Shown here: positions 2,378-48,868 of the stretch, piece after piece
Layout of the letters: each line of letters starts with the position of its first letter
Numbering within the stretch: position 1 is the first letter of the stretch
Assembly: GCA_963703225.1 (NCBI GenBank)
Contig: OY969801.1
Coordinates: 804,001-868,000, forward strand
DNA length: 64,000 nucleotides
Origin: Candidatus Eiseniibacteriota bacterium
Lineage (GTDB): Bacteria > Eisenbacteria > RBG-16-71-46 > SZUA-252
Reading direction: 5' to 3'
The notes under the pieces: generated by a model
Told to the model about the DNA's origin: nothing
The model's database searches: none
What the model saw: only the letters and a program-made list of their open reading frames with translations
Translations under genes and position numbers: made by a program

Positions 2378-4595
2378 ATGCGACGTCGTGCAGCTTGCTT
2401 GTCTCTCCATCTGATCCTCGGCGTGGCGCTTCTCGCATCGGGCAGAGCCGACGCGTCTCCTCGCGTCGAGCCCCACGCGCGATACGCCCCGCCCGCGCCA
2501 AGAGCGCCGCAGGTGCTCTCGGATCTCTCGCTGGCCCGGCTCCGGTCGGAGGGGCGCTCCGTCCTTTGGGTCTTCTTCACCGACAAGGAGGAGGGGGATG
2601 CCGCGTCGTTCGCGCGCTCCCTCCGCGAGGTGGGCGGCCGCGTGACCGAGCGCGCCCGCGCCCGAAGGGCGCGCGAGACCGGTGGCCGCTTTGTCCCCGA
2701 CTACTACGACCTCCCTGTGTCGGGCCGCTACGTCGACGCGGTGGCGCGGACCGGCGCTTTGACGCGCCACGTATCTCGCTGGCTGAACGGGATGACCGTC
2801 GAGGCCGACGAATCGCAGGCGCGGTTGATCGCGAGCCTTCCATTCGTCCGGATCGTGAGCCCGGCCCAGCGCTCGCGCCGCGTGGAAACGCTGCCCGCGG
2901 AACCCCTCGCGCCCTGGCCGGGGCAGGGCGGGCCTCCGGCATCACGTCCTGGCACGGAATCACCACGGGCTCCGTTCGAATGGGATGGATCCGCGCCCAC
3001 GCTCGTCAAGCCGGTCAACTACGGCGCCTCGTTCACCCCGCTCAACGCGCTCAACGTCATCGCGGCCTTTGATTCGGGTTGGAGCGCGGCGACGATCACC
3101 GTCGCGATGTTCGACGCGGGATTTGACAAGGCCCACAACGCCACGTCGCCGCTCTTGAGGATCGCGGAATACGATTTCGTGTTCCACGATGGCGAGACCG
3201 CCAACCAGCCGGGAGACGCCGCGGGAGCATGGGACCACGGCACCGGCACCTGGTCGGTCCTCGGGGGGTACTACCCCAACAACATGGTGGGCCCCGCCTT
3301 CAACGCTCGATTTCTTCTGGCCAAGACCGAGGACATCCGCTCGGAGACGCCGGTGGAAGAGGACAATTGGGTCGCGGCCGTCGAATGGGCCGATTCCATC
3401 GGCGCCGACGTCATCTCCTCGTCGCTGGCCTACTTCGACTTTGACGGGACCGCGAACGACTACACCTACACGGATCTCAACGGGTACACGACGGTGACCT
3501 CGCTCGGAGCCATCATGGCCGCGCGACGGGGAATCGTCGTCGCGAACGCCATGGGGAACTCGGGCGCCCTTCCCGGATCGCTCCAGGCGCCCGCCGACGC
3601 GGACAGCATCCTCTCTTGCGGCGCGGTCGACTCGGGGAACTCCATCGCGGGATTTTCTTCGCGGGGCCCGACCTTTGACGGACGGATCAAGCCGGAGGTG
3701 GTGGCGCAGGGGGTGGCCACGCCCTGGGCCATCGCGGGGAGCCCGTCGGTGGTGGGCACGGCGAGCGGCACGTCGCTCTCCACCCCGCTCATCGGAGGGG
3801 TGGCCGCGCTCGTGCGGGAGGCGCATCCCGAGTGGACGGTCGCCCAGGTTCGCCAGGCCCTCATGACCACGGCGGACAAATCGGCGACGCCCCAACAACG
3901 ACTACGGCTGGGGGCGGGTCGACGCCATCAAGGCGATCTACGGCTCGCCACTGGGCGGGATCGTCGCGCCCAAGCCCTTCAGCCTCCTCGTGCCGTCCAA
4001 CAACTCGGTCGTGAGCAAGCCGCCCAACGTGACGTTCAAGTGGAGAAAGGCGATCGATCCGCAGGGGAGCGCGCTGACCTACAGAATCGATTTTCGGTGC
4101 ACAGCACCTGACTCCTGCGTCTTTCAGGCAACGACGACGGACACCTTCATCGTCTACTCGAACTACCTGGGGCCGAACAAGGCGTATGAATGGACCATAA
4201 CGGCGATCGACCCCGAGGCGCACGAGCGCGAGAGTAAGGACCGTTTCCGCTTCACGACCAGCGCGACCACCGACGTCGGCGTACCCACGCCGCCGCCTTC
4301 GCCACCGCGCGTCACGCTCATGCAGAATCACCCCAACCCGACCCGATCGCTCACTCAGATCGAGTTTACGCTTACGGGGTCGTCGGGTTCGGTCCCTATG
4401 TCGCTCCGCATTTTCGACGCGTCGGGGAGATTGGTCCGGACCCTTATCGACTCCTACACGGCGGTGCCGGCGCGGTGGTCCCTTCGCTGGGACGGCCTCG
4501 ACGGAAATGGTCGCCGCGTTGGCTCCGGCATCTACTACTATAAGCTCCTGGTTCAAGGGAGCACCTTTTCCAAGCGGCTCGTTCTGCTCCGCTAG
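2378..4595 (+). CDS. secreted subtilisin-like S8 serine peptidase with C-terminal T9SS-type sorting (Por/FlgD-Ig-like) domain; frame disrupted near 3885-3895
   Basis: Signal peptide; Asp/His/Ser motifs (AMFDAGFD, HGTGTWS, GTSLSTP); downstream frame carries NNDYGWGRVDA and C-terminal ...IFDASGRLVRTL...GIYYYKL tail; single-base shift in a C run separates the two frames. Confidence 0.75.
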
Positions 4596-6563: not shown

Positions 6564-7736
6564 ATGCCGAAGACGCCCAACAATCCTGAGCCGCCGCGAC
6601 GTCCTGCAGCCGCGGGGCGCCCCGCGCGCGCTGCCGTCGCCGCCGTGCCCGAGATCGACCACGAGCGGATCACCGATCCCGGGCCGTTGGGCAGCGAGGT
6701 CGATCTCGACCGCACCCTCCGCCCGCAGCGGCTCGAGGAGTTCGTGGGGCAGGAATCGCTCCGCGAGCAGCTCCGGATCGCGGTGGAGGCGGCGAGACAG
6801 CGCGGCGAGGCGCTGGACCACCTTCTCTTCCACGGCCCTCCCGGCCTGGGCAAGACCACCCTCGCGTCGATCATCGCGGCCGAGATGGACGTGCCGATCG
6901 TCCAGACCTCGGGGCCAGTTTTGGAACGGGCCGCCGACCTCGCGGGCCTTTTGACCAACCTCGAGTTCCGCTCCGTGCTCTTCATCGACGAGATCCACCG
7001 GATGAATCCGGTCGTCGAGGAGTATCTCTATCCCGCGATCGAGGACTTCTGCCTCGACATCATGATCGACCGGGGTCCCAGCGCGCGGAGCGTCCGGATC
7101 GACATCAAGCGATTCACATTGATCGGCGCCACGACGCGCACCGGCCTCCTGAGCGCGCCGCTCCGCGGCCGCTTTGGGATGAGCGCCCGGCTCGACTACT
7201 ACGCGCCCGAGGAATTGACGCGAATCATCCGCCGCTCGGCGAAAATCCTCGGCGTGCCGATCGACGCGGCCGGCGCCAAGGAGCTGGCCTCCCGCTCGCG
7301 CGGAACGCCGCGGGTGGGAAACCGCCTCCTGCGCCGCGTCCGGGACTACGCCGAGACGCGCGCCGACGGGAAGATCACCGAGGAGGTGGCTCGCGCCGCG
7401 CTCAAGCTTTTGGAAGTGGACGCGCGCGGCCTCGACGACATGGACCGCCGGATGCTCGAGGCAATCGTGGTCAAGTACGGCGGCGGCCCGGTCGGGCTCT
7501 CGACGATCGCCGTCGTGGTGGGAGAGGAGCCGGGAACGCTCGAGGACGTCTACGAGCCCTACCTGATCCAGGAGGGTTTCCTGAAGCGGACGGCGCGGGG
7601 CCGCGAGGCCACCGATCTCGCCTTCACCCACCTCGGCCTCACGCCACCCGACCGCGGCGCCTCCGCCGACCCGGCATTGGCGCGCCCCGAAGTGCCCGAA
7701 GAGGGCCCGGATACGCCTCAAAGCACGCTGTTCTGA
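6564..7736 (+). CDS. ruvB: Holliday junction branch migration helicase RuvB
   Basis: AAA+ Walker [10 protein letters not shown], Walker B LFIDEIH, sensor motifs; ~40-aa Ala/Pro-rich N-terminal extension. Confidence 0.9.
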
Positions 7737-19486: not shown

Positions 19487-20155
19487 ATGAAGATTTCTAC
19501 CATGGTGATTGCCGCGTTCGCCTGCGCGATCACCGCATCGATTCCGATCAGCCTGCAGGGTCCAATGAAGGTGTCCGCTACTGTGCCGACTCCACCGCTG
19601 GGCAAGACGGGGGCTCTACCGAGCGAGGGTACTTGCGCCCAATGCCACAGCGGAGCCGCGACAACGGGCACGCCCTTTCTCACCGTCGTGCCGCCCATTA
19701 CCGAGTACGCCCCGGGCAACACGTACACGATCGGCGTGGGAGTCGAGGACTTTGGCATGGTTCGCTGGGGCTTCGAGGCGACGGTCCTAAAGGACTCCGA
19801 CAACACGACAGCCGGAAGCATCACGACCTTTGTCGATCCACACGTTGTGGCTTTGCCTTCCGGCGGCCGTATTTACGTTTGTCATACCACCAACGGGATA
19901 ACCTCCCCGAATGATCCCACGGACGGAACCTGGTGGGGGACGCAGGATGGCCCGGTCGCGTGGGGGTTTACCTGGACCGCTCCCGCGCAGGGAGCAGGGC
20001 CGGTGACGTTTTACGCCACCATGGTGGCAGCCAACGGGGACGATGACGCGAACAGCGCGGACAACACATACGTGACCACGATGACCCTCACCGAGGGCGC
20101 GCCGGTTGCGGTGACCCACACGACCTGGGGGAACATCAAGAACACCTACAAGTAA
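19487..20155 (+). CDS. secreted protein with single CxxCH heme-binding motif (putative c-type cytochrome-like domain)
   Basis: 222 aa; strong RBS; signal peptide; TCAQCHSG motif; Thr/Gly-rich beta-like remainder. Confidence 0.55.
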   Translation: MKISTMVIAAFACAITASIPISLQGPMKVSATVPTPPLGKTGALPSEGTCAQCHSGAATTGTPFLTVVPPITEYAPGNTYTIGVGVEDFGMVRWGFEATVLKDSDNTTAGSITTFVDPHVVALPSGGRIYVCHTTNGITSPNDPTDGTWWGTQDGPVAWGFTWTAPAQGAGPVTFYATMVAANGDDDANSADNTYVTTMTLTEGAPVAVTHTTWGNIKNTYK

Positions 20156-20163
20156 GCAGGAGC

Positions 20164-20952
20164 CTAGTGAGCCGTCGCCGTCTCGGGGCGGAACTTCCGC
20201 GCCACCCAGCGGAGTTGTTCCACCCCGAAGACGGCGTCTTCTTTCTCCTCGCCGTCCGACTTGGCGGCGGTCGCGTCGAACGCGGCGCAGGCTGACTCGT
20301 ACTGCGCGCGTCCTTCCGGCTCCCCGAGCGTCCAGCGCGCGATCCCCAGGTAGCCCGCGTAGAGAAGCACGCCGAAGTCGGAGCCGGCCCTGATTTCATC
20401 CCGCCCCGTTCCGACCACGGCGAGGCGCGCCAGCCCGGACGCCGTCTCGAACGCGCCGCGGGCCTCGTGAAGGTTCGCGAGCGACATCTGGTGCATTCCC
20501 ACGGCCCAGTAGGCCATCGCGCGGCGATCGGGGGTCTTCCCCAGCTCGCGCCGCCAACGGACGCAGTCCTCCGCCGCGCGGAGGCCCGCCTCGAAGTGCC
20601 GACGCTCGCGCGGCGCGTCGTCCGCCGGCCAGCACTCCGCGAGATCGGCCGAGAGGTTGTAGGAAAGGCGGTTCGCGAAATCGGTGAGCTTCCAGGCCGT
20701 CTCGCCGTCCTCGGTCTCCAGCGCCTGCCGCAGCGTCTCGCCAATCCCGGCCGTCACCACTTCCACCAGCGCGTCGAAGTCCCGCCCGGCCCACTCACGG
20801 TTGCCAAATTTCTTCTGCGCGATGGCGTAGACCGTCCGGCGCGTTTCGGGGTCGGCGATCGCGTCGATATAACGAACCACCTCCGGAGCGCCGCCGCGCT
20901 CCATGGCGGCTTTCAGCTCCTCCCATCGCCGTTCCTCGAGATCAGCGGTCAT
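20164..20952 (-). CDS. hypothetical protein (helical), co-directional with DegT-type aminotransferase
   Basis: 262 aa; starts 6 nt downstream of aminotransferase stop on minus strand; no recognised motif. Confidence 0.5.
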   Translation of the reverse strand: MTADLEERRWEELKAAMERGGAPEVVRYIDAIADPETRRTVYAIAQKKFGNREWAGRDFDALVEVVTAGIGETLRQALETEDGETAWKLTDFANRLSYNLSADLAECWPADDAPRERRHFEAGLRAAEDCVRWRRELGKTPDRRAMAYWAVGMHQMSLANLHEARGAFETASGLARLAVVGTGRDEIRAGSDFGVLLYAGYLGIARWTLGEPEGRAQYESACAAFDATAAKSDGEEKEDAVFGVEQLRWVARKFRPETATAH

Positions 20953-20957
20953 GGTTC

Positions 20958-22136
20958 TCAGCCCTTTCCGGTCAGGTGGAAGCGAACCCGTGCGGCGACG
21001 CGGTCGGCGTCGGCGTCGGTGAGGTCGGGGTAAATCGGAAGCGAGAGAGTCTCTTCAAAACAGCGCTCGGCACTCGGGAACGCGCCGGGCTTGAGACCCA
21101 AGCGCTCCTGATAGAAGGGGAAGAGATGGAGCGGCTTGAAGTGGACGCTGGTGCCGATTCCGTCTTCTCGGAGCGCGAGGGCGAGCGCCGTTCGATCGAG
21201 CCGCGCGGCCTTCGGGGTCACCGCGATCTGATAGAGGTGCCACGCGTGGCGCATGCCTTGGGCGACGGTCGGTGTCCGGAGCCCCGGAATCCCGGCGAGA
21301 GACTCTTCGTAGCGCCCGGCGATTGCCTCGCGGCGCGCGCGCATCGCCTCCGCGCGGCCCATCTGCGCCAGCGCCAAGGCGGCCTGGATGTCGGTCATGT
21401 TGTACTTGTATCCCAGCTCGGTAACATCGTAATCCCACCAGCCGCCCCTGTCGTACCGCGACCAGGCCGCGGCCGAGAGCCCGTGCAGCGAGAGCCGGCG
21501 GATCCGCTCCGCCCACTCCTCGCGCGCGGTGACCGCCATTCCGCCCTCTCCCGCCGTCACGCCTTTGGTGGCGTAGAACGAGAAACAGGTGATGTCGGCC
21601 TGGGTGCCCACGGGGACGTCCCAGATCCGAGCGGTGAGCGAATGGGCCGCGTCCTCGATCACCGGAATCTTGTGGCCATGCGCGATCGCGCCGATCTCCG
21701 CGGAGCGGCAGGGATGGCCCGCGAGGGAAACCGTCACGATGGCGCGCGTCTTGGGCGTGATCGCTTTCGGCAGGAGGGCCGGGTCCAGGTTCTTGGTCGC
21801 CGGCTCCACGTCCACGAAGACAGGCCGCGCGCCGAGATAGAGGATCGTCTCGCCGGTGGCCACGAAGGTGTAGGGCGAGGTGACCACCTCGTCGCCCTCC
21901 TTCACTCCGGCCGTGATGAGTGCCAGGTGGAGCGCCGCGGTGCAGGAGGAGAGCGAAACGGCGTGGAGGTCGGCGGCCCCGCTCTCCGGCGCGGCGACAT
22001 ACGACGCTACCGCGGCCTCCAGCTCCTTCGCCTTGGGCCCCGTCGTGAGCCAACCAGAGCGCAGCACCGCCGCCACCGCATCGAGCTCAGCCTGCGTGAT
22101 GGACGGGCGGTGAAAAGGGATGGGCGCCGCGGACAT
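20958..22136 (-). CDS. DegT/DnrJ/EryC1/StrS family PLP-dependent sugar aminotransferase
   Basis: 392 aa; IPFHRPSIT...SGWLTTGP N-terminus, PLP-lysine region FSFYATKGVTAGEGG. Confidence 0.85.
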   Translation of the reverse strand: MSAAPIPFHRPSITQAELDAVAAVLRSGWLTTGPKAKELEAAVASYVAAPESGAADLHAVSLSSCTAALHLALITAGVKEGDEVVTSPYTFVATGETILYLGARPVFVDVEPATKNLDPALLPKAITPKTRAIVTVSLAGHPCRSAEIGAIAHGHKIPVIEDAAHSLTARIWDVPVGTQADITCFSFYATKGVTAGEGGMAVTAREEWAERIRRLSLHGLSAAAWSRYDRGGWWDYDVTELGYKYNMTDIQAALALAQMGRAEAMRARREAIAGRYEESLAGIPGLRTPTVAQGMRHAWHLYQIAVTPKAARLDRTALALALREDGIGTSVHFKPLHLFPFYQERLGLKPGAFPSAERCFEETLSLPIYPDLTDADADRVAARVRFHLTGKG

Positions 22137-22253
22137 TCCGAAACGGTACCACAGGGCCGACTTCCATTGTCAGTGCTTGACTTACAGGCGAAATCGGTGT
22201 AACATAATTGTCTTGCCAGTCTCGCCTATGACCCCACATCTGAGGACCCATCC

Positions 22254-23081
22254 ATGACCAGGCATGCCGCGTTACGAGTGCGTCCGCTGTCGCCGATCCT
22301 CGTTGCAGCCTCCGTTCTAAGCCTCGGTATTTGGGCCGGTTGCGGCAGCGACGATAACAAGTCCTCGAATAACGGTGGCGGCGGTGGCGGGGGCACGACC
22401 ACCAGTTCCTTCACTGGCTGGCTCGCCAACTCGGTGGAAAACGGATCGGTCGCGATCACCGTCAACAAGGCAAATCTCGCGGGTCGCCCGAGGATTCCCA
22501 ACGCGCCGCGGGCCGCGGTTACCGCGAGCGGGACGCTCACTCTCTCGGGCGTCGCGCCCGTCGCACTTACCGGCACACTCGACGATACATCAGGCGATCT
22601 TGGACTGTCGGGGGGCGGATACACGCTGACCGGCCTTTACGATCCGGGTCCGCCGAGCAAACTCTTCGGATCGTATACCGGGCCGAACGGCAATGGAGGT
22701 TTCGACTGCGAGAGTGGCGGCTCGGCCTCGGCCACGGTGCTCTGCGGCGGCTGGACCAGCAGCGATCAGAGCGATTCCGGTACGTTTACCTTCTCGATCC
22801 GAGGCACAACGGTCGAAGGGATCGTCTATTCACCCGGGGCATCCCCGCCCTACGACGCGATCCCGTTCACCGGTACCGTCTCGGGCACGGGAACCACTCG
22901 TACGATTTCGGTCTCGTTCGAAATGCCGAACCTTTTCAGGCTCACCGCCTCCGGCACGCTCGATACGGCCACCAATACGGTGAGCAGCGGCACGTACTTA
23001 TTCGAAGACCTATCAGGCGCGGGGAACCCGGATCAGACCGGGTACTGGAGCGCCGCGCCTTGTCATAGCGGCACGCACTAA
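22254..23081 (+). CDS. secreted Gly/Thr/Ser-rich protein, lipoprotein-like
   Basis: 275 aa; signal peptide ending ...LGIWAGCGSDD (Cys after hydrophobic core); low-complexity G/T/S-rich body. Confidence 0.5.
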   Translation: MTRHAALRVRPLSPILVAASVLSLGIWAGCGSDDNKSSNNGGGGGGGTTTSSFTGWLANSVENGSVAITVNKANLAGRPRIPNAPRAAVTASGTLTLSGVAPVALTGTLDDTSGDLGLSGGGYTLTGLYDPGPPSKLFGSYTGPNGNGGFDCESGGSASATVLCGGWTSSDQSDSGTFTFSIRGTTVEGIVYSPGASPPYDAIPFTGTVSGTGTTRTISVSFEMPNLFRLTASGTLDTATNTVSSGTYLFEDLSGAGNPDQTGYWSAAPCHSGTH

Positions 23082-23091
23082 CCGCAAATTC

Positions 23092-23136
23092 ACGAAGACG
23101 ATTTCGAGAGGCGCTGGTTTCCCACCAGCGCCTCTT
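23092..23136. repeat. 45-bp hairpin-forming repeat, copy 1 (11-bp perfect stem AGAGGCGCTGG / CCAGCGCCTCT); likely bidirectional terminator
   Basis: 40/45 identity with 25954-25998; lies between convergent genes; reverse strand encodes ..EALVGNQRLSKSSS* homologous to the STK C-terminus. Confidence 0.5.
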
Positions 23137-23174
23137 TACAATTCAGGGGACAGGGCCGTCACGCCCTAGCCTGC

Positions 23175-23609
23175 TCACTTGCGTTTCGTGGACTTCTTAC
23201 CGCCAGAAGCATTGAGAGCGACGGCCGCGCGGATGAGCGCCTTGAACGCATTCGCGTCAATCTCCTCACCCTCGTGAATATCGATGGCGCGCCTTACGTT
23301 CCCGTCCAGGCTCGAGTTGAAGAGGTTGGCAGGATCCTTCAAGGAAGCGCCCTTATGGAAGGTCAGCTTCACGACCGACTTGTACGACTCTCCCGTGCAG
23401 ATGCCCCCATCATGGGACCATACCGGTGTTCCGGGGTTCGTCGGTTTCACCCACTTCACCTCTTCCACAACCTCAGGGTCGGCCTCCCTGATGAGGGCGC
23501 GCATCCTTGACAGTGCATCGCCTCTCCAGTCACCCAACTCGGCAATCCTTTCGCTGATTAGTTTGGTGGCCGCGTTGCCTGGTGCCTTTGGTGGACTCTT
23601 CATCGTCAT
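23175..23609 (-). CDS. DUF1801 (YdhG-like) domain protein
   Basis: 144 aa from ATG at 23609; WVKPTNPGTPVWSHDGGICTGESYKSVVKLTFHKGASL motif block typical of the family. Confidence 0.6.
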   Translation of the reverse strand: MTMKSPPKAPGNAATKLISERIAELGDWRGDALSRMRALIREADPEVVEEVKWVKPTNPGTPVWSHDGGICTGESYKSVVKLTFHKGASLKDPANLFNSSLDGNVRRAIDIHEGEEIDANAFKALIRAAVALNASGGKKSTKRK

Positions 23610-23671
23610 ACCTTTCGTTGGGGATAAGCCGCGTTGCCGATCCCGCCGTTGTTCGAGGACCCCTGCCAGCG

Positions 23672-24112
23672 CTACGGGACCCAACCGGGCAGGGCGGCCG
23701 CCTGTCGGATCCACGTCGCCATCTGCGCCTCGTCGAGCTGGTCGCCTTCGCGGATGTCGATGTAGCGCACTTCCTTCTGCTTGGACTCGCCGGGGGGGAC
23801 AGGGCGCAGTGACGTGCCGCGGAAGAAAGCCACCTTCACGTATTTCGTGAAGACATAAAAGCTGAGGAACCAGCCTTGGCCCTCGACTCCGTAGAACGGC
23901 GAGTTCCATTTGACCGCCTTACGCACGCCGGGGAGGGTGCGCACGATGAGCGCGTCGAGGCGGCGCCCGACGTCGCTTTTCCAGCCCGGCATGGCCGCGA
24001 TGTAGGCCTGCACGGGGGCGTCGCCGTCGCCCTTCGCGATCTGAGGGTTGCCGCCTGCGAGGAGGGTCGGCTTTGCGACCTTCGTCGACTTCTTGGACGT
24101 CCCTTTGGCCAT
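23672..24112 (-). CDS. DUF1801 (YdhG-like) domain protein, tandem paralogue
   Basis: 146 aa from internal ATG (MAKGTSKK...); VKWNSPFYGVEGQGWFLSFYVFTKYVKVAFFRG block parallel to neighbour. Confidence 0.6.
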   Translation of the reverse strand: MAKGTSKKSTKVAKPTLLAGGNPQIAKGDGDAPVQAYIAAMPGWKSDVGRRLDALIVRTLPGVRKAVKWNSPFYGVEGQGWFLSFYVFTKYVKVAFFRGTSLRPVPPGESKQKEVRYIDIREGDQLDEAQMATWIRQAAALPGWVP

Positions 24113-24152
24113 TGTATTCACTCCGACTAGGGTCAGACTCGCCTTCACGGTG

Positions 24153-24743
24153 CTAGGCTGCGGAGATCGCCTTGCGACGATTGGTCTCCGGCCAATCGAT
24201 CGAGCGCGAGCCATCGCGCCCCGGCGTCTGCCACGCGAGAGAGTAGTACGCCTGCCCCGTCACGCCGAGATACAAGCGATGGACCCGTTCGAAGAAGCCC
24301 GTGGTGTGATAGCTCCTCGGAAATCCGAGATGGACCGCATCCAGGTGATGCATGAACTCGTGGCACAGCGTGGCCAGGAGGGTCCGGCTGGAGGTCCATT
24401 TCCGAATCATCGGCGTTCGCGTCCAGAGCCGGATCCTCGTGAGGCTGAAGGTGTAGTCGCCGAGCAGCTCGGATGAGAGGAGCCCCTCGCGGGTACGATG
24501 TGGGCGAACGCCGAGCATCTCCACGCTCGGAGACGGAACCTCGTAGAACCCCGAGAATCCGTCGAGCAGCTCCTGACAGACTTGGGCCAAGGGAGCGCGC
24601 GCCTCCGCGTCGCGGGCGCTCTCGAGCAGCCCGAAGAGCGGCGTCAAGGTCACCGCGAGCGGCACGGGGACCTCCACGAGGCGGCTGCTGTCGTCGTATT
24701 CCTGGCGAAGCTTGGCGCGCGAAGGTCTGCGATCGGTCACCAT
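24153..24743 (-). CDS. hypothetical protein with HExxH motif (putative zinc-dependent hydrolase)
   Basis: 196 aa; LCHEFMHHLD motif; no other recognised feature. Confidence 0.45.
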   Translation of the reverse strand: MVTDRRPSRAKLRQEYDDSSRLVEVPVPLAVTLTPLFGLLESARDAEARAPLAQVCQELLDGFSGFYEVPSPSVEMLGVRPHRTREGLLSSELLGDYTFSLTRIRLWTRTPMIRKWTSSRTLLATLCHEFMHHLDAVHLGFPRSYHTTGFFERVHRLYLGVTGQAYYSLAWQTPGRDGSRSIDWPETNRRKAISAA

Positions 24744-24786
24744 CGTCCGGAAATCTTCTACGCTGGGCCTGTGAAGTCAATGCCCT

Positions 24787-25089
24787 CTAGCTGGCTTCAC
24801 CGGGGATCCGCCTGGCCGAGTCGCTGCCAGGCTCAGTGCGTCGCTCGCCGCGCCACTTGGTGGCGTACGGCAGCACGAACAAGTAGAGACCGGTCAACAG
24901 GAGCAAGGCGAGCGGGGCCAGCGGCACGTAGCTCACCCAGACGACAGGCTCCTTCTGTGCCAGGGCGACGAAGGTGACGATGACGGACACCGTAAAGGCG
25001 ATGGACAGCCAACGGTGGATCTGCCGAACCCATTGGTTCCAGTTCACTGAAACCTCCTTTGAAGACGAGCCCGAACTCGACCGGCTCAT
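24787..25089 (-). CDS. small membrane protein
   Basis: 100 aa from ATG at 25089 overlapping upstream stop (ATGA); two hydrophobic helices. Confidence 0.4.
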   Translation of the reverse strand: MSRSSSGSSSKEVSVNWNQWVRQIHRWLSIAFTVSVIVTFVALAQKEPVVWVSYVPLAPLALLLLTGLYLFVLPYATKWRGERRTEPGSDSARRIPGEAS

Positions 25090-25532
25090 GGGATCCTCGC
25101 GAGCAGGTCGACGAGCCTCCCGCCCATCATCTTCCAGCCGTAGCGCGCACCGCCGAAGTTCCGCTTCTGGTCCGGCTTGAAGCCCGACTGCACGAGGGAC
25201 AGGCGCGTGCCCGACGCCGTGGGCGTGAGCGTGAAGGTCACGACGGTGTCTATCTCCATATCGCCAACGACCCACGTGTAGCTGAGCTTCCTGTGCGCTT
25301 CGATCTCAAGGACCCGGCAGTTCACGGTGCCGTCCCACCCGGGGTGCGGCTGCGTCTTGAACGTGAACGCGGCCCCCAGCTCGAGCTTGAGCTCGACGAC
25401 GGGCAGGAGCCACCCGGTCAGCAGCATGGGGTCGGTGAGCGCGCGCCACACCTTCTCCGGCGAATGATGCAAATCGAACTCGAACGCAATGGATTCGGTT
25501 TGCGATGGGGCGGTCCTGTCGATGGGGTTCAT
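25086..25532 (-). CDS. SRPBCC / AHSA1 (activator of Hsp90 ATPase homologue)-like protein
   Basis: 148 aa from ATG at 25532; coupled by overlapping stop/start to ArsR gene; fold-family call from overall pattern, moderate certainty. Confidence 0.6.
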   Translation of the reverse strand: MNPIDRTAPSQTESIAFEFDLHHSPEKVWRALTDPMLLTGWLLPVVELKLELGAAFTFKTQPHPGWDGTVNCRVLEIEAHRKLSYTWVVGDMEIDTVVTFTLTPTASGTRLSLVQSGFKPDQKRNFGGARYGWKMMGGRLVDLLARIP

Positions 25533-25858
25533 TCGTCCATTTTCTCCAGCAGCTGTCGAAGGCGATCGACGTGCTCCGTCCAGAAGGCGCGGTAGTGCGC
25601 GATCCAGTCGATGAGCGGCTTCATCCCGCGCGGCCGCACCCGGTAATAGGCGCAGCGCCCCTCGCGCCGCGCGTTCACCAGGCCGGCCCGTTTCAAGGTG
25701 GCGAGGTGCTGCGAGACCGCCGGCTGCGAGATGTCGAAGCGCGCCGTGAGGTCCTTGACCGCCACTTCGCCACGCGTGAGAGACTCGAAGATCGCCCTGC
25801 GGCTGGGGTCCGCCAGCGCCTGGAAGATCTTGCCTTCGGCCACGGCCGCGCTCTGCAT
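25529..25858 (-). CDS. ArsR/SmtB family transcriptional regulator
   Basis: LADPSRRAIFESL...VKDLTARFDISQPAVSQHLATLKRAGLV winged-helix signature. Confidence 0.8.
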   Translation of the reverse strand: MQSAAVAEGKIFQALADPSRRAIFESLTRGEVAVKDLTARFDISQPAVSQHLATLKRAGLVNARREGRCAYYRVRPRGMKPLIDWIAHYRAFWTEHVDRLRQLLEKMDE

Positions 25859-25951
25859 GCATGAAAGATAAGCCAATACTTATTGATTGTCAAGCCCGCA
25901 GATTCGGCCGCCGGGGATCGGCGGAACAGGGGGCCAGGGCGGGTGGGGAGC

Positions 25952-28945
25952 TTACGAGGACGGTTTCGAGAGGCGCTGGATTCCCGCCAGTGCCTCTTCG
26001 TTTGCCTTCACGCCGGGCTCGGCCATTCTGTACTGGTAGGCGACCCGCTTGTAGAGGGCCAGCGCCTCGTCGCGGCGGCCGCGCTCTTCGTAGAGGCGGG
26101 CCAGCGTGTTCATCGCCTTGTAGGTATCGATAGGGTCCCCGCTGCCGGGGGCACTCTTGACGATGGCAACCAACTCGGTCTCCGCGCCAGCCATGTCGCC
26201 CGCGGCGATCAGGGCGCGGGCAAGCGCCCACCTGCGTTTCCATTGCCGGAATCCGGGCTGCGTTGCCGGGAGGTTCTCCCGGAACACCTTCACGGCTTCC
26301 GCCGCGTGCCCCTTCGCGAGGGCGAGCTGACCGCCAAGAAACCTCAGATTCTGGCGCTCGAGAGGCGTCGCGCCTTTCTCCAGCTGCCGCTCGTAGCCTC
26401 GGAGCATCGCCTGAGCGGACTCCAGCTTTCCCGTGCGGATCAATGCTTCCATGAGGTGGAGAGAGCTTGCTCCGCGGACCACCAAGATCCTGTTGTTCTG
26501 AGCGGCCTGGACTCGAAACTTCTGCACAGCCTCTTCCGCCCTTCCCATCTCGAGGAGCGCTTGGGCGTGGAAGCGCGTCACCAGTGTTTGATCTGGTCTC
26601 GTGTAGTGGCCGCCCAACTTCCGCTCAAAGCTCGCGGCCATGCGCGCCGCCTCGGAGAACCGGCCCTGGCTGAGTCTCAGGAAGACTTCGCCGGGAGCCG
26701 TGTCGAGCGGCTTTCCGTCATAGCCGGGGATCCCCGCGACCACGTCGATCGTGGCGCGGAGCGAATCGAAGTCGCCCATCGTTCCCTGGGCCCCGGCGAG
26801 GCCGAACAGGGCAGCGAGGTATCTCGGGTCCCTCGCGAGCGCTTCATGATAGGCGGCGAGCCCTCCCTCCAGGTCGCCACTTTGCAGAAGCACTTCCCCT
26901 TTCATCGAGTAGCCGACCGGGTTGTCCGGTTCGGCCCGAATGAGGCGCTCGATGCTTGTAAGCGCGCGATCGTACTCACCCCGATCTCCCAGGACGTCCG
27001 TTATGTGGGTGTACGCGACCACGAACGAGGGATCGATCTCGGTGGCCCGTCCGAGCGCGCTGAGACCCATGTCGTCCATGCCGCCGTGGTAGAGGGCCTC
27101 CCCCAGGCCGTAGAGGAACTCCTTATCGTCGGGGTATCGAACGAGCAGGGCCCGGTACTGGCGTGCCGCGCCCGCGTAGTCCTTCTGGATCACGGCCCCG
27201 AGCGCCATCAACCCATCGCGGTCGCGGCGCGACAGGCGGTCTCCGAGGCGGAGCCCGGTTTGCACTTCCTGCTGAGCGCCGTCGACGTCGGAATTCCACC
27301 ATGTGGCGACAGCCGCGTAATACCACGCGAGGGCGAAGGTGGAATCCGCCGCGATCGCCGCGCGGAATTCCCGTTCCGCATCGGCCCATTTGCTCTTGTA
27401 GAGTTCGTCGAGCCCGTGCACGTAGGCCCTGTAGGCCATTGGGCTCTGGGTCGTGAGGCTCGCCACGTCGACCGCCGACTGGCGGACTCCGAACCCCGCG
27501 CGGGCGAGGCCGTCCCGCAACGACGCGGTGAGCGAGTCGACGGCCGCGAAGAGGCCGCGTTCACCTCCCGCGGTCCGCACCTTGCTGGCCGTGAGCACGG
27601 TGCCGTCGGATGTGGAGGCCACTTCGGCCGCGAGGACGATGTCCGGCTGGGTCGCGTAGATGTACCCGGTCACCACGTAGGCGGCGCCGGCCCGTCCGGC
27701 CACCTCCAGCGCCTCCTTGCCCTTCACGGTCTCGTTCGGCTTTCCCATTTGGCGGAGCACGTCGTGGATCCGTTGGGCGCTCACGACCGGCATCACCTGG
27801 GACTCGCTCAACCCCACGTTTAGAAGGCTGGTCGCGATCGGAGCGGCACCGTGTGGATCGCCCGGCTCCGCCAGGTTCTCGAACGACAGAACCGCGATCG
27901 ACTTCTGGGCCGCCTCTGCCGCGGGTGGCTCGGGCTTGAGGCTGGGACGGTACGGGCCCAGGAGGTAGACCAACGCCGCGACCAGAACAATCGCGACCGG
28001 AACGACGATGCGCCGGGGGAGGCGACGTCTACCGGGAGATCCCGACGTCGGGGCGCTGCTCGTGATGGTCTCGGTGGCGTTCCGCGGACGGCGCCGGCCA
28101 CGCCCGTGAGCGTGGCGGTCCCCGGCGCCGCGGACGCGGCCAGGCGCCTTCAAGTCCGCCGCCAAGTCGTCCGCGTGCTGATACCGGAGCGCCGGATCCT
28201 TCTTCATGCACTTGAGGACGATCCGCTCCAGCTCGAGCGGGATTCCGCTTCGAAGCGCCGAGGGCGCCTCCGGCTCATGATGCTGGACCGCGTAGAGCGA
28301 AGCCTCCGGGCGGTCGCCGGCGAAGGCTCGCGTACCCCGGTCAGCGCCTCGTAGAGCACCGCACCCAGCGAGAAGAGGTCGCTCCTCCCATCCAGCGGCG
28401 TCCCGCGCGCCTGCTCCGGGCTCATGTACGCCACCGTGCCCGGCGTGAATCCCTCGGCGGTGAGGTGGGTCGCGCCTTCGAGGTGCGCGATTCCAAAGTC
28501 GGTCAGCTTGGCGTCGCCCTCGGGGGTGACCAGGATGTTGGCCGGCTTGACGTCCCGGTGGACGACTCCCTTCGCGTGCGCGTGGGCGAGGGCCCCCGCG
28601 ATCGAGATTCCGGTCGCGATGACTTCAGGGATGGGAAGAGGGCGATGGGCGATCCTCGCGGCGAGGGTCTCCCCCTCGACGTACTCCATGACGAGGCAGG
28701 AGCGCACGCCGTCGCTCTCGAGCGCGTGGACCGCGGCGATGTTCGGGTGGGAGAGCGACGCGAGCGATCGTGGCTTCCCGGCGCAGGCGCTCCTGTGCCT
28801 CGGGGTCGCCGGCGGCGGCCTGGGGCAGGAACTTGAGCGCGACGCGCCGGCCCAGGCGCTCGTCTTCCGCGAGGAAGACCTCGCCCATGCCGCCCTGGCC
28901 CAAGGGCCCCAGAATCCGGTAGTGGAGGAAGCGCTCCGCCCCCAT
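25952..28945 (-). CDS. Ser/Thr protein kinase with TM segment and C-terminal TPR repeats; at least two frame disruptions (near 28700-28720 and 28210-28340)
   Basis: Kinase subdomains [39 protein letters not shown] across three frames; long TPR-like C-terminal region. Confidence 0.7.
25954..25998. repeat. 45-bp hairpin-forming repeat, copy 2 (overlaps the last codons of the Ser/Thr kinase gene)
   Basis: 40/45 identity with 23092-23136; stem AGAGGCGCTGG / CCAGTGCCTCT (one G-U). Confidence 0.5.
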
Positions 28946-29057
28946 GGGGAGACCTTACCGGCGCGGCCCGGGGAAGTCGAGGGAGTAGGGCCAGAGTGGG
29001 CCGGCCCCTATCGCCGGCCAAAATTGAGCCGATTCGTTTTGACAGCGATGGGGCCGC

Positions 29058-31630
29058 GTGGTAACAATCGGCTGGCTTTCCGGAGCCGCCCCGAAAAGGC
29101 TCCGCGAGACGCCTGCCCCGATTGACGAACACCACGGACGGAGTCTACCACGAAGCAGCGCGTCACAATCGCCACGCATCCCGCCCGCTTCGGGCGCCTC
29201 ACCGGCACTTTCGCCGCTCTATTCTTCGTCTTTGTCCTGCTCTCTCTTCTCCGCGCCACCCGCCGCCGCCCAAACCGCCGATGATTTGAAGCGGCAGGCC
29301 GAGCAGATGGGCGTGAAGTCGGAGGCGGAGGCGATCCGCAAGGCCAAGGAAGCCGGGCTCACGCGCGACCAGATCCGCCAGGCGCTTCGAGAGGCCGGAT
29401 ACAGCGACGCGAAGGCGGAGGAAATCATCGGCGGGGGCGCCGCGAGCTCCGCGACCGGGAGCGCCGGGTCCTCGTTCACCGCGCCCTCGATTCTCGATTC
29501 AGCCGCGGTGGCTCCGGCAATGGTTCCGCCTCCGCGGGGCGACGCTCAAGCCCGAGGATTATCCCGAGTTCACCAAGGAGATCGCGCGGCGCGTTCCCGG
29601 CGCGCCCGCCATCCTTCCCTTCGGATACGAGATCTTCGGCTACGTCGCGTCGACGTTCGAGCCTCTGGCGGCGGGTCCGGTCGATCCCGACTATCCGATC
29701 GGCCCCGGCGACGAGGTCATCATCTCCGTCTGGGGCGACAACGAGTTCACGCACGCCGCCATCGTGACCCGCGAGGCCACGATCAGCGTGCCCGACATCG
29801 GCCAGGTCGTGCTGAACGGCCTCACGCTCTCCCAGGCCAAGCGCCTGATCACGGACCGGCTCGGCATGGTCTACTCGGGAATTCGGGCGCGCCGGCCCAC
29901 GACGTTCGTCGACGTGACGCTGGGCAAGCTCCGCACCATCCAGGTCTTCATCCTGGGCGACGTGGTCCGCCCCGGCGGCTACACGATCTCCTCGGTGAGC
30001 ACCGTGCTGAACGCGCTCTATAACGCCGGCGGTCCCACCTCCCGCGGCTCGATGCGCGACATCCGGATCATCCGGCACAACCAGATCTGGAAGGACGTCG
30101 ACCTCTACGGATACATCCTCACCGGCAACAAGGCCGAGGACGTGCGGCTCCAGAGCGGCGACGTGGTCTTCGTGCCGCCGGCGGGGAAGGTGGCCGCGGT
30201 CCTGGGCCAGATCCACCGGAGCGCCATCTACGAGCTGGCGCCGGGCGAAGGATTCCGGGATCTCTTGAGGCTTGCCGGCGGGATTCAGTCGACCGCCGTG
30301 GAGACTCGCGCGCTCGTGGACCGGGTGGTCCCGTTCGGGCAGCGCGACTCGCTGAGGGGCGAGGATCGCATCGCGCTGGATCTCCCTCTCCGCGAGATCC
30401 TGGCGGACAGCACGCAGAATCCCGACCTGTTCGACCGCGACATCATCCAGATCTTCCGGGTGGGGGAGGAGCGGAAGAACACGGTCTCGATCGCGGGGAG
30501 CGTGGTGATGCATCCCGGCACCTACGAGCTGCGGCCCGGGATGAGGGTTTCGGACTTGCTGAACGACGCCGGCGGGTTGAAGCCCGACGCGTACATGGAT
30601 CGCGCGACGCTGGTGCGGACCTCCGAGGACCGGCGGCGCAGCACGAAGCCCTTCAACGTGAGGCTCGCGCTGGAGCACGAGCCCACGAACGACCTGGAGC
30701 TGCAGAAGCTGGACGAGATCACGCTCCGCTCGATCTGGGAGATTCAGGAGCGGCACACGGTCTCGATCGGCGGGAGCGTCCGCGAGCCCGGGACCTACGA
30801 ATACCTCGACGGCATGACCGTGATGGATCTGATCTTCCGGGCCGGCGGGCTGAAGGAGTCGGCGTACAAGCAGGAGGCGGAAGTCTCCCGCGTGGACTCG
30901 ACCACGATCGTGACCAAGCAGGCCGCGGAGGTCTTCCGGGTTCCGATCTCGGCGAACTACGCCGTCCACTCCGCCGACACCACGTTCGCGCTCCAGCAGT
31001 GGGACCAGGTATACGTCCGGGAGATTCCCGACTGGCAGATGCAGCGCAACGTGAAGGTCACGGGCGAGGTGATCTATCCCGGCACCTATTCGATTGAAGG
31101 ACAAGGATGAACGGCTGTCGTCGGTGCTGGCCCGGTCGGGCGGGTTGAAGCCGACGGCCTATCCGAAAGCGGCGGTGTTCGTGCGAAACAAGGGTGGCGC
31201 GGGGCGGCTGGCGCTGGACGTGAAGGACGTGGCCAAGCACAAGGACAGCCGGTACGACATCGCTTTAGAGGATGGCGACAGCCTCAACATTCCCAAGGAG
31301 CCGAAGACGGTCAAGGTCGCCGGCGCGGTCGGATTCCCATCGAGCGTGCTCTACGAGCGGGGGAAGTCGCTGGGCTATTACATCGACCAAGCCGGTGGAT
31401 ACACCGACGAGTCGGACAAAGGCCGGGTGAAGATCGTCCAGCCGGACGGGAAGGTGAAGCCGGTCAAGAAAATGTGGTGGGACCCGGAGCCGCAGCCCGG
31501 CGCATTGGTCGTTGTGCCGCCGAAACCGCCCGTGGAGAAGAAGGAGACACTCAAGGACGTCGCAACCATCATGACCATCATTACGGGGGCCGTGACGACG
31601 ATCTTTATCGCCCATGAGGCGACGAAGTGA
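29058..31630 (+). CDS. polysaccharide export protein, Wza/GumB-like with multiple SLBB domains; start uncertain, frame disruptions near 29500-29560 and 31080-31110
   Basis: PGDEVIISVWGDNEFT..., repeated SLBB-like units, C-terminal segment ending at 31630. Confidence 0.7.
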
Positions 31631-46064: not shown

Positions 46065-46084
46065 GAGGCGGGCACCCGCCTCAC

Positions 46085-46174
46085 CCACTCCACCCTCCCG
46101 CCGACGAGGAACGGCGTCTCGTTCGTTGAGGACCCGGGGATGTGATCCAGGTTCTCGATCGAAACCGTTCCGAT
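46085..46174 (-). pseudogene. remnant of Wzi-like outer-membrane protein 3' end
   Basis: Encodes IGTVSIENLDHIPGSSTNETPFLVGGRVEW, homologous to the C-terminus (VGTASIENLDHILAPAESETPFRVSGKVAW) of the intact gene at 48846-50423; about 50/70 ungapped nucleotide identity between 46100-46170 and 48860-48930. Confidence 0.45.
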
Positions 46175-47915: not shown

Positions 47916-48868
47916 GTTCGGTCTTGGGGGCGGACGGTTCTCTGACGCGCGTCGGCTACATCGATCTACCGGAGCACATCGGGCAGGGCGGTTTCGATCA
48001 CGCGGCGGTCGATCGAGGCCGCGCCCTGCTCTACGTGGCGCACACGGCCAACGATGCGGTGGACGTTGTCGACACGCGGGCGGGCACCTACGTGCGGTCC
48101 ATGATCGGCCTCAAGGAGGTCGCGGGGGCGGCGGTGGACGAGCCGTCGGGCTTGGTCTTTACCTCGAACCGCGGTGAAGATACGGTTGGCATCTACTCAC
48201 CCGATTCGGCTGGCACAATCGAAAAGGTCGCGGTCGGCCACAGGCCCAATGGTCTCGCCTATGATCCCGGCCGCGGAATCCTCCTTTCCGCAAACGTGGG
48301 GAACGCGAAAACCGGCCGCCCGCCCAGCGTCACCCTGGTGGATGTCCCCGCGCGGTCGGCGGTGGTGACGATCCCCATGCCGGGTCGAACCCGCTGGGCG
48401 ATCTTCGACCCCAACCGCGGGGTCTTCTTCGTCAACATCGCGGACCCGCCGCAGATCGTCGAGATCGATCCGCGGGCGTCCGGCGAGGTGTCGCGCGCTC
48501 TCGGCGTGCCTGCCCGCGGGCCCCATGGCCTGGATCTCGACTCGACACGGCAGCGTCTCTATTGCGCGTGTGATGATGGGACCCTGGTGAGCCTCAGCTC
48601 GCGATCGGGGGAGGTGCTCGATACTCTCAGCCTGAGCGGTGCGCCCGACGTCGTATTCCTGAATCGCGCGCTGGCGCACCTCTACGTGGCGATCGGCGAC
48701 CCCGGCGTCATCGACGTGATCGACGTCGCCTCGTGGAAGCGAGTAGACGTGGTCCCCACGGAGGCCGGCGCGCATACGATCGCGCTCGATGAAGGCGGGA
48801 ATCAGGTCTACGCCTTCCTGCCGCGGACGCACCGGGCGTCCGTTTTCACCACGCCACCTTCCCGCTGA
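47912..48868 (+). CDS. YncE/YVTN-like beta-propeller repeat protein
   Basis: GTG overlapping upstream stop; repeated ~40-aa units with GxxPxGLxxD-like pattern. Confidence 0.55.
   Translation: MSSVLGADGSLTRVGYIDLPEHIGQGGFDHAAVDRGRALLYVAHTANDAVDVVDTRAGTYVRSMIGLKEVAGAAVDEPSGLVFTSNRGEDTVGIYSPDSAGTIEKVAVGHRPNGLAYDPGRGILLSANVGNAKTGRPPSVTLVDVPARSAVVTIPMPGRTRWAIFDPNRGVFFVNIADPPQIVEIDPRASGEVSRALGVPARGPHGLDLDSTRQRLYCACDDGTLVSLSSRSGEVLDTLSLSGAPDVVFLNRALAHLYVAIGDPGVIDVIDVASWKRVDVVPTEAGAHTIALDEGGNQVYAFLPRTHRASVFTTPPSR

What the first reader, a model, noticed from the sequence alone, without database searches (positions are those of the whole stretch)
23092..23136. Two copies of a 45-bp hairpin element that also encodes a conserved protein C-terminus
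The sequences at 23092-23136 and 25954-25998 are 40/45 identical and each folds into an 11-bp-stem hairpin. Copy 2 forms the last ~15 codons of the TPR Ser/Thr kinase (..[14 protein letters not shown]). Copy 1 lies between convergent genes, and its reverse strand encodes ..EALVGNQRLSKSSS* but is cut off by a stop 20 codons upstream. So copy 1 is either the relic 3' end of a lost paralogous gene or a small mobile terminator-like element that supplies a stop codon and hairpin.
Basis: seen in the sequence. Interest (0 to 1): 0.5.

Follow-up and report, generated by a model that had tools for sequence, protein, structure and literature searches.

The report
Duplicated gene-end terminator flanking an insertion
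The two 45-base hairpin copies are one kinase-gene tail, which probably also stops transcription of the facing gene, duplicated when about 2.8 kb of extra genes was inserted there; this is ordinary genome rearrangement, not a mobile element.

Summary
23092-23136 and 25954-25998 are 40/45 identical direct repeats, the only two copies in the window, and each forms an 11-12 bp hairpin. Copy 2 encodes the last 15 codons of a TPR Ser/Thr kinase.

In relatives (Candidatus Eisenbacteria MAGs and metagenome contigs), this same kinase ends 10-60 nt from a convergent lipoprotein gene. No ArsR/SRPBCC/DUF1801 genes lie between them. In the window these genes form a lineage-specific insertion of about 2.8 kb, bounded exactly by the two copies. 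Copy 1 is therefore the duplicated tail of the kinase's own 3' end, left next to the lipoprotein gene.

The tail is conserved at synonymous sites in seven orthologues (single codon in 9/13 versus 7/53 invariant columns, p=1.4e-4). Read antisense, it is a hairpin plus T-tract just downstream of the convergent gene. I infer that it is that gene's intrinsic terminator, embedded in the kinase coding sequence. One relative (L017) has deleted the whole kinase but kept this 70-nt piece.

After the duplication, copy 2 kept the peptide and copy 1 kept a perfect stem. Pattern scans of two public collections found no dispersed copies. How the duplication arose is unresolved. Interest is low to moderate.

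The parts
23090..23136 (+). Copy 1, the orphan copy. It is a relic of the kinase's last 15 codons plus stop, read on the - strand. On the + strand it is a perfect 12-bp hairpin (23107-23135) starting 26 nt after the lipoprotein stop, followed by TTACAATTC. I infer that it is the terminator of the lipoprotein gene and possibly also of the convergent DUF1801 operon.
   Evidence: Its flank is homologous to the kinase-downstream sequence of L005. Its changes from the orthologue consensus all lie outside the ancestral stem positions.
25952..25998 (-). Copy 2. It is the functional last 15 codons plus stop of the TPR Ser/Thr kinase ([14 protein letters not shown]). The same bases read on the + strand give a hairpin at 25968-25998.
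   Evidence: The peptide is conserved in all orthologues.
25998..26011 (+). T-rich tract TCGTTTGCCTTCAC, directly 3' of the copy 2 hairpin on the + strand. On the - strand it is kinase codons V-K-A-N-E, which use the same codons in all orthologues, including GCA and GAA. Together with the hairpin it matches the intrinsic-terminator pattern.
23137..25951 (-). Inserted gene block between the repeats, all genes on the - strand. It holds an ArsR/SmtB regulator (about 25533-25862) with its own sigma-70-like promoter (25893->25865), an SRPBCC/AHSA1 protein, a 100-aa membrane protein, a 196-aa protein of unknown function, and two DUF1801 proteins (the last ends at 23175). The block is absent from this junction in all nine other lineages examined.
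   Evidence: Absence in relatives.
25952..28945 (-). TPR Ser/Thr protein kinase gene. It is 995 aa and intact in the 99%-identical contig L001. In the window it is split by six single-base insertions.
22254..23081 (+). Convergent lipoprotein gene (signal peptide plus lipobox Cys, no Pfam family). It is the ancestral neighbour of the kinase 3' end.

Best explanation
Ancestral state. The TPR Ser/Thr kinase gene and a lipoprotein gene converge with almost no spacer, so the two genes share their last few dozen bases. Read on the kinase strand, these bases encode the conserved C-terminus ...[16 protein letters not shown]... Read on the opposite strand, they form a GC-rich 11-bp hairpin followed by UUCGUUUGCCUU. 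This is an intrinsic-terminator-like signal lying 30-110 nt downstream of whichever gene converges on the kinase.

The event. In the lineage of this window, about 2.8 kb (an ArsR-regulated operon with SRPBCC and DUF1801 genes) was inserted exactly at this junction, and the 47-nt tail (hairpin plus the last codons and stop) was duplicated. The two overlapping functions were thereby split between the copies. Copy 2 stayed attached to the kinase and keeps the peptide: its one difference from the orthologue consensus is synonymous and weakens the stem. Copy 1 stayed next to the lipoprotein gene. It lost the reading frame context and took three amino-acid-changing substitutions, but it kept a perfect stem, now lengthened to 12 bp. 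It presumably still terminates lipoprotein transcription, and possibly transcription of the incoming operon from the other side.

What is shown and what is inferred. Shown: the repeat, the insertion, the synteny, the synonymous-site constraint and the pattern of substitutions. Inferred: terminator activity, and selection as the reason copy 1 persists. Unresolved: how the 47 nt were duplicated. Candidates are Campbell-type single crossover of a circular DNA carrying a homologous kinase tail (by an integrase or by RecA), a small tandem duplication followed by an insertion between the copies, or fill-in of staggered breaks at the palindrome.
For: Insertion at the junction:
- L002 and L008 have the kinase stop 10-12 nt from the stop of the convergent lipoprotein orthologue (47% identity, E=1e-66).
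- The closer relatives L014/L015 and L016 have the kinase facing a tandem lipoprotein paralogue 31-60 nt away.
- None of them has the ArsR block.
- L001, a 99%-identical contig of the same species, has both copies and the block.
- The copy 1 flank aligns to the kinase-downstream sequence of L005 over 55 nt.

Nucleic-acid constraint:
- In seven orthologues (46-70% aa identity), 9/13 invariant-residue columns of the last 16 conserved codons use one codon, against 7/53 upstream (Fisher p=1.4e-4).
- Codon identity at identical residues is 87% against 53%.
- The same codons GCA, GAA and AAA are used in all orthologues.

Terminator pattern:
- It is called only on the strand antisense to the kinase: in the window at copy 2, in L002 31 nt after the lipoprotein stop, and in L017.
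- The only two stem variants among 12 sequences are G.U in that orientation and A.C in the kinase sense.

Retention without the kinase:
- L017 has deleted 2,982 bp, the whole kinase, but keeps the last 70 nt (hairpin plus T-tract, 98% identical to window 25964-26018) after the lipoprotein paralogue.

Not a dispersed element:
-.
Against: - There is no experimental 3'-end data.
- The stems are invariant, so there is no covariation support.
- The tail of copy 1 (TTACAATTC) has only 4 T in 8 and was not called terminator-like by the scan, so its termination efficiency is doubtful.
- The subfunctionalisation pattern rests on five or six substitutions. The chance that four changes all miss the 22 ancestral stem positions is about 0.07 (my own arithmetic).
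- The L017 deletion could simply be recent rather than shaped by selection.
- The inserted block is a mosaic. Parts of it occur elsewhere at 87-93% nt identity in other contexts, so more than one event may be involved.
- The window's source genome was not in the scanned collections, so its genome-wide copy number was not measured.
Confidence: 0.62

Rival explanations
1. The repeats are attL/attR of an integrated, now integrase-less islet. Under this reading, the hairpin at the kinase 3' end is an attachment site for a site-specific recombinase, and the incoming element carried a surrogate kinase tail, as tRNA- and gene-3'-end-targeting islands do. This is a rival for how the duplication arose. 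It is compatible with the terminator reading.
For: - Imperfect direct repeats with a 16-nt identical core (23102-23117 and 25964-25979) bound DNA that is absent from relatives, and the kinase reading frame is restored.
- The junction is hypervariable in relatives: a HigBA-like pair in L003, DUF1259 plus a DMT transporter in L006, and another kinase in L007.
- A 5' half of a tRNA-Lys gene abuts the kinase stop in L006 and L007.
Against: - There is no integrase, transposase or excisionase among the L001 gene calls, which cover window 10954-31634.
- The other insertions at this junction (L006, L007, L003) show no second hairpin copy in the sequence available.
- The block genes are ordinary housekeeping-type genes that occur in other contexts without the hairpin.
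- The L017 breakpoint lies 25 nt from the window's breakpoint, so there is no fixed crossover point.
Confidence: 0.2
2. Copy 1 is the decayed 3' end of a second, paralogous TPR-kinase gene that once lay at 23.1 kb.
For: The reverse frame of copy 1 reads a recognisable kinase C-terminus with its own stop. These genomes carry many TPR kinases.
Against: - Similarity stops abruptly at the hairpin edge (23136/23137), and only 38 nt separate it from an intact DUF1801 gene.
- In relatives, the single orthologous kinase itself occupies this position relative to the lipoprotein gene.
- Other TPR-kinase paralogues seen here do not carry this tail.
Confidence: 0.04
3. A small mobile, terminator-like palindromic element (REP- or MITE-like) that inserts at gene ends and supplies a stop codon and hairpin.
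For: It is a hairpin, sits at gene ends and occurs in two copies.
Against: - There are only two copies in 64 kb.
- Degenerate pattern scans of GTDB species representatives and of JGI metagenome contigs returned only single-copy matches at orthologous kinase ends.
- The sequence encodes a peptide conserved across orthologues at about 50% identity, so it is vertically inherited coding sequence.
Confidence: 0.03
4. The hairpin has no nucleic-acid function. It is a by-product of the conserved peptide EAL...QRL, whose codons GAG-GCG-CTG and CAG-CGC-CTC are reverse complements. Copy 1 and the L017 relic would then be young neutral leftovers.
For: The stem is exactly the EAL/QRL codon triplets. There is no covariation. 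The U-tract of copy 1 is poor. The window and L001 are too close to date the event.
Against: - Synonymous sites are far more conserved in the last 16 conserved codons than upstream (p=1.4e-4).
- This includes the codons GCA, GAA and AAA, which spell the antisense T-tract.
- Copy 1 accumulated about 10% change outside the stem but none in it.
Confidence: 0.15

Closest known systems
Intrinsic (Rho-independent) terminators at convergent gene pairs, including terminators that overlap the 3' coding region of the facing gene
   Same: A GC-rich 11-12 bp hairpin followed by a T-rich tract, placed 26-110 nt after the stop of the convergent gene. The simple consensus scan calls it in that orientation.
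   Different: The whole signal, stem and T-tract, lies inside a conserved protein C-terminus and constrains its codon choice. Activity is untested. The T-tract is interrupted (6 T in 12), and in copy 1 it is replaced by a weaker one.
attL/attR direct repeats of genomic islands that integrate into the 3' end of a gene (tRNA, tmRNA or protein-coding) and carry a replacement 3' end
   Same: Imperfect direct repeats of about 47 nt that include a dyad-symmetric sequence bound lineage-specific DNA, and the target gene keeps an intact 3' end.
   Different: There is no integrase or any other mobility gene in or near the block. The block is a mosaic of ordinary genes. Other insertions at the same junction lack the repeat.
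REP/BIME and MITE-like palindromic repeats
   Same: A short GC-rich palindrome at gene ends.
   Different: It is not dispersed, one copy is coding sequence, and it is inherited vertically with the kinase.
Subfunctionalisation after duplication (the duplication-degeneration-complementation idea), applied to a 47-nt dual-use segment
   Same: After the duplication, each copy keeps one of two ancestral roles and degenerates for the other.
   Different: The unit is a gene end rather than a gene, and the inference rests on only a handful of substitutions.

Membership tests
Intrinsic (Rho-independent) terminator | Stable GC-rich stem-loop in the transcript | tested here: met
   Stems of 11-12 bp. Copy 1 folds at -26.8 kcal/mol in a 69-nt context, z = -3.7. 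98.5% of cells are paired across 12 sequences in the lipoprotein-sense orientation.
Intrinsic (Rho-independent) terminator | U-rich tract immediately 3' of the stem | tested here: inconclusive
   Met for copy 2 and all orthologues on the strand antisense to the kinase (TCGTTTGCCTT). Copy 1 has TTACAATTC and falls just under the scan's threshold. It is not met on the kinase-sense strand.
Intrinsic (Rho-independent) terminator | Lies shortly downstream of a stop codon on the same strand | tested here: met
   The distance is 26 nt (window copy 1), 31 nt (L002), 43 nt (L006), about 74 nt (L003) and about 110 nt (L007) after the convergent gene's stop.
Intrinsic (Rho-independent) terminator | Transcript 3' ends map to the U-tract | not testable with these tools
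   No transcriptome data are available here.
Dispersed palindromic repeat (REP/BIME, MITE) | Many copies scattered through one genome | tested here: not met
   Two copies in the 64-kb window. Matches in public collections are single-copy and only at orthologous kinase ends. The complete source genome could not be scanned.
Dispersed palindromic repeat (REP/BIME, MITE) | Extragenic or non-coding location | tested here: not met
   Copy 2 and all orthologous copies encode a conserved protein C-terminus.
Integrated island bounded by att direct repeats | Direct repeats bound DNA that is absent from the same site in relatives | tested here: met
Integrated island bounded by att direct repeats | Integrase or recombinase gene in the island, usually next to one att site | tested here: not met
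   Pfam, NCBIfam and PHROGs searches of the six block genes, and the L001 gene calls covering window 10954-31634, show no recombinase.
Integrated island bounded by att direct repeats | Identical crossover core shared by the two repeats | tested here: inconclusive
   The longest identical run is 16 nt (TTTCGAGAGGCGCTGG), out of 40/45 overall. This is compatible with a core but does not demonstrate one.
Integron attC site | R''/R' core sites (RYYYAAC ... GTTRRRY) flanking an imperfect palindrome | tested here: not met
   Reading the sequence shows no GTTRRRY/RYYYAAC pair around the hairpin. The stem is perfect and has no extrahelical bases.
Relic of a lost paralogous kinase gene | Residual homology to the kinase body upstream of the tail, or an intact second kinase at that site in relatives | tested here: not met
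   Similarity ends at 23136/23137, and an intact DUF1801 gene follows after 38 nt. Relatives have the one orthologous kinase at that site.

The most novel reading that the evidence does not exclude
The hairpin embedded in the kinase C-terminal codons could be a dedicated recombination hot spot: an attachment site used in trans by an unrecognised recombinase, or a palindrome prone to staggered breakage. It would repeatedly capture gene blocks at this junction and duplicate itself when it does so. The tRNA-Lys 5'-half fragments that abut the same stop codon in L006 and L007 would be traces of the same process.
Probability: 0.1. Interest if true: 0.6.

Novelty: new member of a known kind. Interest (0 to 1): 0.3.

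Why it matters
The case shows how tightly packed convergent genes can share sequence. One stretch of about 60 nt appears to serve both as a conserved protein C-terminus and as the facing gene's terminator, and it leaves a measurable footprint on synonymous sites.

An insertion at such a junction seems to be tolerated when the shared piece is duplicated, after which each copy specialises.

For annotation, an 'orphan' gene tail next to a gene end may be a working terminator, not a mobile element or the relic of a lost paralogue.

The finding does not open a new mechanism.

Tried and rejected
- A first, stricter DNA pattern (TCGAGAGGCNCTGG...) found nothing in genome contigs, because orthologues use ACC or TCC before AAA. 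A relaxed pattern found one GTDB genome and two JGI contigs.
- ARAGORN found no tRNA or tmRNA in the window or in any locus.
- Rfam found nothing at E<=1 over 22900-26150, and only chance-level hits around the hairpin in L006 and L007.
- The idea that the hairpin is the 3' half of a tRNA (a T-arm or minihelix) continuing the tRNA-Lys 5' half seen in L006 and L007 was considered and dropped. There is no T-loop consensus, no acceptor 3' strand and no ARAGORN or Rfam call.
- Covariation analysis is uninformative because the stems are invariant.
- GC content does not mark the block as foreign: 0.59-0.66, against 0.60-0.72 in the flanks.
- I looked for the block's donor through homologues of the 196-aa protein. 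They lie in several unrelated contexts and none has the hairpin.
- A distant lipoprotein homologue (L018, 37% identity) lies in a different context with no hairpin.
- The kinase frameshifts in the window were considered as evidence of pseudogenisation. I judge them more likely to be assembly or strain-mixture artefacts. L001 is intact, and other window genes carry similar +1 insertions.

Full report
**1. The observation**

The two 45-mers are present as described. 23092-23136 (ACGAAGACGATTTCGAGAGGCGCTGGTTTCCCACCAGCGCCTCTT) and 25954-25998 (ACGAGGACGGTTTCGAGAGGCGCTGGATTCCCGCCAGTGCCTCTT) are direct repeats with 40/45 identity. A 35-nt degenerate core, allowing up to 3 mismatches, matches only these two places in the window; 100 dinucleotide-preserving shuffles gave none.

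Copy 1 folds into a perfect 12-bp stem with a 5-nt loop. Copy 2 folds into an 11-bp stem with a 7-nt loop. One of its positions is G.U on the + strand RNA and A.C on the - strand RNA.

Copy 2 is the last 15 codons of a TPR-containing Ser/Thr kinase on the - strand (...[16 protein letters not shown], stop at 25952-25954). On its - strand, copy 1 reads *RPCPLNCKEALVGNQRLSKSSS*. It sits between a lipoprotein gene (22254-23081, +) and a DUF1801 gene that ends at 23175 (-).

**2. Organism and a near-identical second assembly**

A 688-kb ENA metagenome contig (L001) is 99.0% identical to window 10954-31634. It carries both copies unchanged and the same genes between them. In L001 the kinase is an intact 995-aa gene. 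In the window it is broken by six single-base insertions, and other genes carry similar insertions. I therefore treat the breaks as probable assembly or strain-mixture artefacts. The nearest named relatives are Candidatus Eisenbacteria MAGs.

**3. What relatives show at this locus**

- In L002 (GCA_035280305.1) and L008 (a JGI contig), the kinase stop is 10-12 nt from the stop of a convergent gene. That gene is the orthologue of the window's lipoprotein (47% identity, E=1e-66), and the DegT aminotransferase lies beyond it, as in the window.
- Three contigs with closer lipoprotein orthologues (58-64% identity) have DegT, lipoprotein and a tandem lipoprotein paralogue. In L014/L015 and L016 the kinase then converges on the paralogue 31-60 nt away.
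- None of nine other lineages has ArsR, SRPBCC or DUF1801 genes at this junction. Only the window and L001 do.
- By parsimony, the about 2.8 kb between the repeats (23137-25951) is an insertion in the window's lineage.
- The insertion is bounded exactly by the two copies. Copy 2 is contiguous with the kinase body. Copy 1 is contiguous with the lipoprotein flank. Copy 1 plus 9 further bases aligns to the kinase end and downstream spacer of L005 (55 nt, 82%).
- Copy 1 is therefore a duplicate of the kinase's own tail, not the remnant of another gene.

**4. Why the tail is so conserved**

The kinase orthologues share only 46-70% amino-acid identity over the C-terminal 300 residues. Their last roughly 60 nt are nearly identical as DNA.

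Among seven orthologues, 9 of 13 invariant-residue columns in [16 protein letters not shown] use a single codon. Upstream the figure is 7 of 53 (Fisher p=1.4e-4). Codon identity at identical residues is 87% against 53%.

The stem consists of the codons for EAL (GAG GCG CTG) and QRL (CAG CGC CTC), which are reverse complements. The invariant codons just upstream (GTG AAG GCA AAC GAA) include GCA and GAA, which I would expect to be non-preferred in a 65-70% GC genome. Read on the other strand they spell TTCGTTTGCCTTCAC, a T-rich tract directly 3' of the hairpin.

The consensus scan calls the element terminator-like only on the strand antisense to the kinase:
- in the window at copy 2;
- in L002, 31 nt after the lipoprotein stop;
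- in L017.

In every locus a convergent gene ends 26-110 nt before the hairpin. The only two stem substitutions in 12 sequences (window copy 2 and L005) give G.U pairs in the antisense RNA but A.C mismatches in the kinase-sense RNA.

I infer that the tail doubles as the intrinsic terminator of the convergent gene. This is an inference. The stems do not vary enough for covariation, and no transcript data exist.

**5. An independent natural experiment**

In L017 the whole kinase gene has been deleted. The deletion is 2,982 bp relative to L014, from 55 nt upstream of the start to codon -23. The last about 70 nt remain directly after the lipoprotein paralogue: hairpin plus T-tract, 98% identical to window 25964-26018. 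They are joined to what was the kinase's upstream region. This is a second orphan copy, produced by a different route, and it again keeps the terminator-like part.

**6. Divergence of the two window copies**

Compared with the orthologue consensus, copy 2 differs once (GCG to GCA). The change is synonymous and weakens the stem.

Copy 1 differs at four or five positions, three of which change the amino acid (A to V, I to N, P to S). None falls in the ancestral stem positions, and the two loop changes lengthen the stem to 12 bp.

This complementary pattern fits a split of the two ancestral roles between the copies. The numbers are small, however: the probability that four changes all miss the stem by chance is about 0.07 by my own arithmetic. 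Copy 1 also lost the original T-tract. Its replacement, TTACAATTC, falls below the scan's threshold.

**7. What it is not**

- It is not a dispersed element. Degenerate pattern scans of 185,579 species-representative genomes and of JGI metagenome contigs returned one and two loci respectively. Each is a single copy at an orthologous kinase end.
- It belongs to no Rfam family and is not a tRNA or tmRNA.
- It has no attC-like core sites.
- There is no integrase, transposase or phage-like gene in the block or among the L001 gene calls covering window 10954-31634.
- The block has its own sigma-70-like promoter in front of the ArsR gene.
- The block is a mosaic. Its 196-aa gene and DUF1801 genes occur at 87-93% nt identity in other contexts without the hairpin, for example after a different kinase paralogue in L013.

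**8. Mechanism of the duplication (unresolved)**

Three routes could give repeat-insert-repeat:
- a single crossover of a circular DNA carrying a homologous kinase tail, either site-specific or RecA-dependent;
- a small tandem duplication of the 47 nt, followed by an insertion between the copies;
- fill-in of staggered breaks at the palindrome.

The junction is clearly unstable in this clade. Relatives carry a HigBA-like pair (L003), a DUF1259 gene plus a DMT transporter (L006), another kinase (L007), a kinase deletion (L017), and a tRNA-Lys 5' half abutting the kinase stop (L006 and L007). The other insertions show no second hairpin copy in the sequence available, and the breakpoints differ. 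A dedicated att site is therefore possible but not favoured.

**9. Verdict**

The feature is a duplicated dual-use gene end: a kinase C-terminus that is also an antisense terminator. It flanks a lineage-specific insertion of about 2.8 kb. It is a clear example of known processes rather than a new kind of element, and its interest is low to moderate.

Noticed in passing
L006 about 7540-7588 and L007 about 4499-4540 (strand antisense to the kinase): A 38-nt 5' half of a tRNA-Lys(CUU)-like gene (acceptor 5' strand, D arm, anticodon stem and loop) abuts the kinase stop codon, and its anticodon loop overlaps the stop. ARAGORN and Rfam do not call it. blastn matches annotated phage tRNA-Lys genes over nt 1-38. 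L003 keeps a shorter trace (GGCAGG). It may be the scar of an old tRNA gene or of an integration site at this junction.
   Followed up: partly
window 25952-28945 (-); insertions at 28776, 28339, 28334, 28144, 28093, 28078; also 18826, 17788, 16921, 14613: The kinase and several other genes carry single-base insertions relative to the 99%-identical contig L001, where all of them are intact. In the window the kinase is split into three ORFs. This is probably assembly error or strain mixture rather than real pseudogenes.
   Followed up: partly
window 27500-31600 compared with 19500-27500: Divergence between the window and L001 is below 0.2% across 19.5-27.5 kb but 2-5% across 27.5-31.6 kb (the kinase 5' part and its upstream region), with a lesser peak at 17-19.5 kb. 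This suggests recombination tracts or collapsed strain variation.
   Followed up: no
L017 2399-2533 compared with L014 9649-12773: A relative has cleanly deleted the entire 998-aa kinase gene (2,982 bp) but retains its last 70 nt and its upstream intergenic region. The kinase is therefore dispensable in at least one lineage.
   Followed up: yes
window 24156-24815 (196-aa gene) and 23486-23633; L013, L009: The 196-aa protein of unknown function in the inserted block has many homologues at 70-93% aa identity, some labelled Binatia or Gemmatimonadales, in varied contexts. In L013 it follows a different TPR Ser/Thr kinase paralogue at 93% nt identity.
   Followed up: partly
window 25865-25893 (-): A sigma-70-like promoter (TTGACA-17-TATCTT, 10/12) lies directly upstream of the ArsR-family gene. 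The inserted block is therefore a self-contained transcription unit.
   Followed up: no
L014 8770-9588, L016 802-1629, L017 1471-2334: Relatives carry a tandem paralogue (38-39% identity) of the lipoprotein between it and the kinase. The window, L002 and L008 have only one lipoprotein gene.
   Followed up: partly
window 46069-46171 / 48833-48935 and 54714-54766 / 56266-56318: Other direct repeats in the window: 103 nt at 73% identity, and 53 nt at 81% identity. They probably lie in paralogous coding sequences and were not examined.
   Followed up: no
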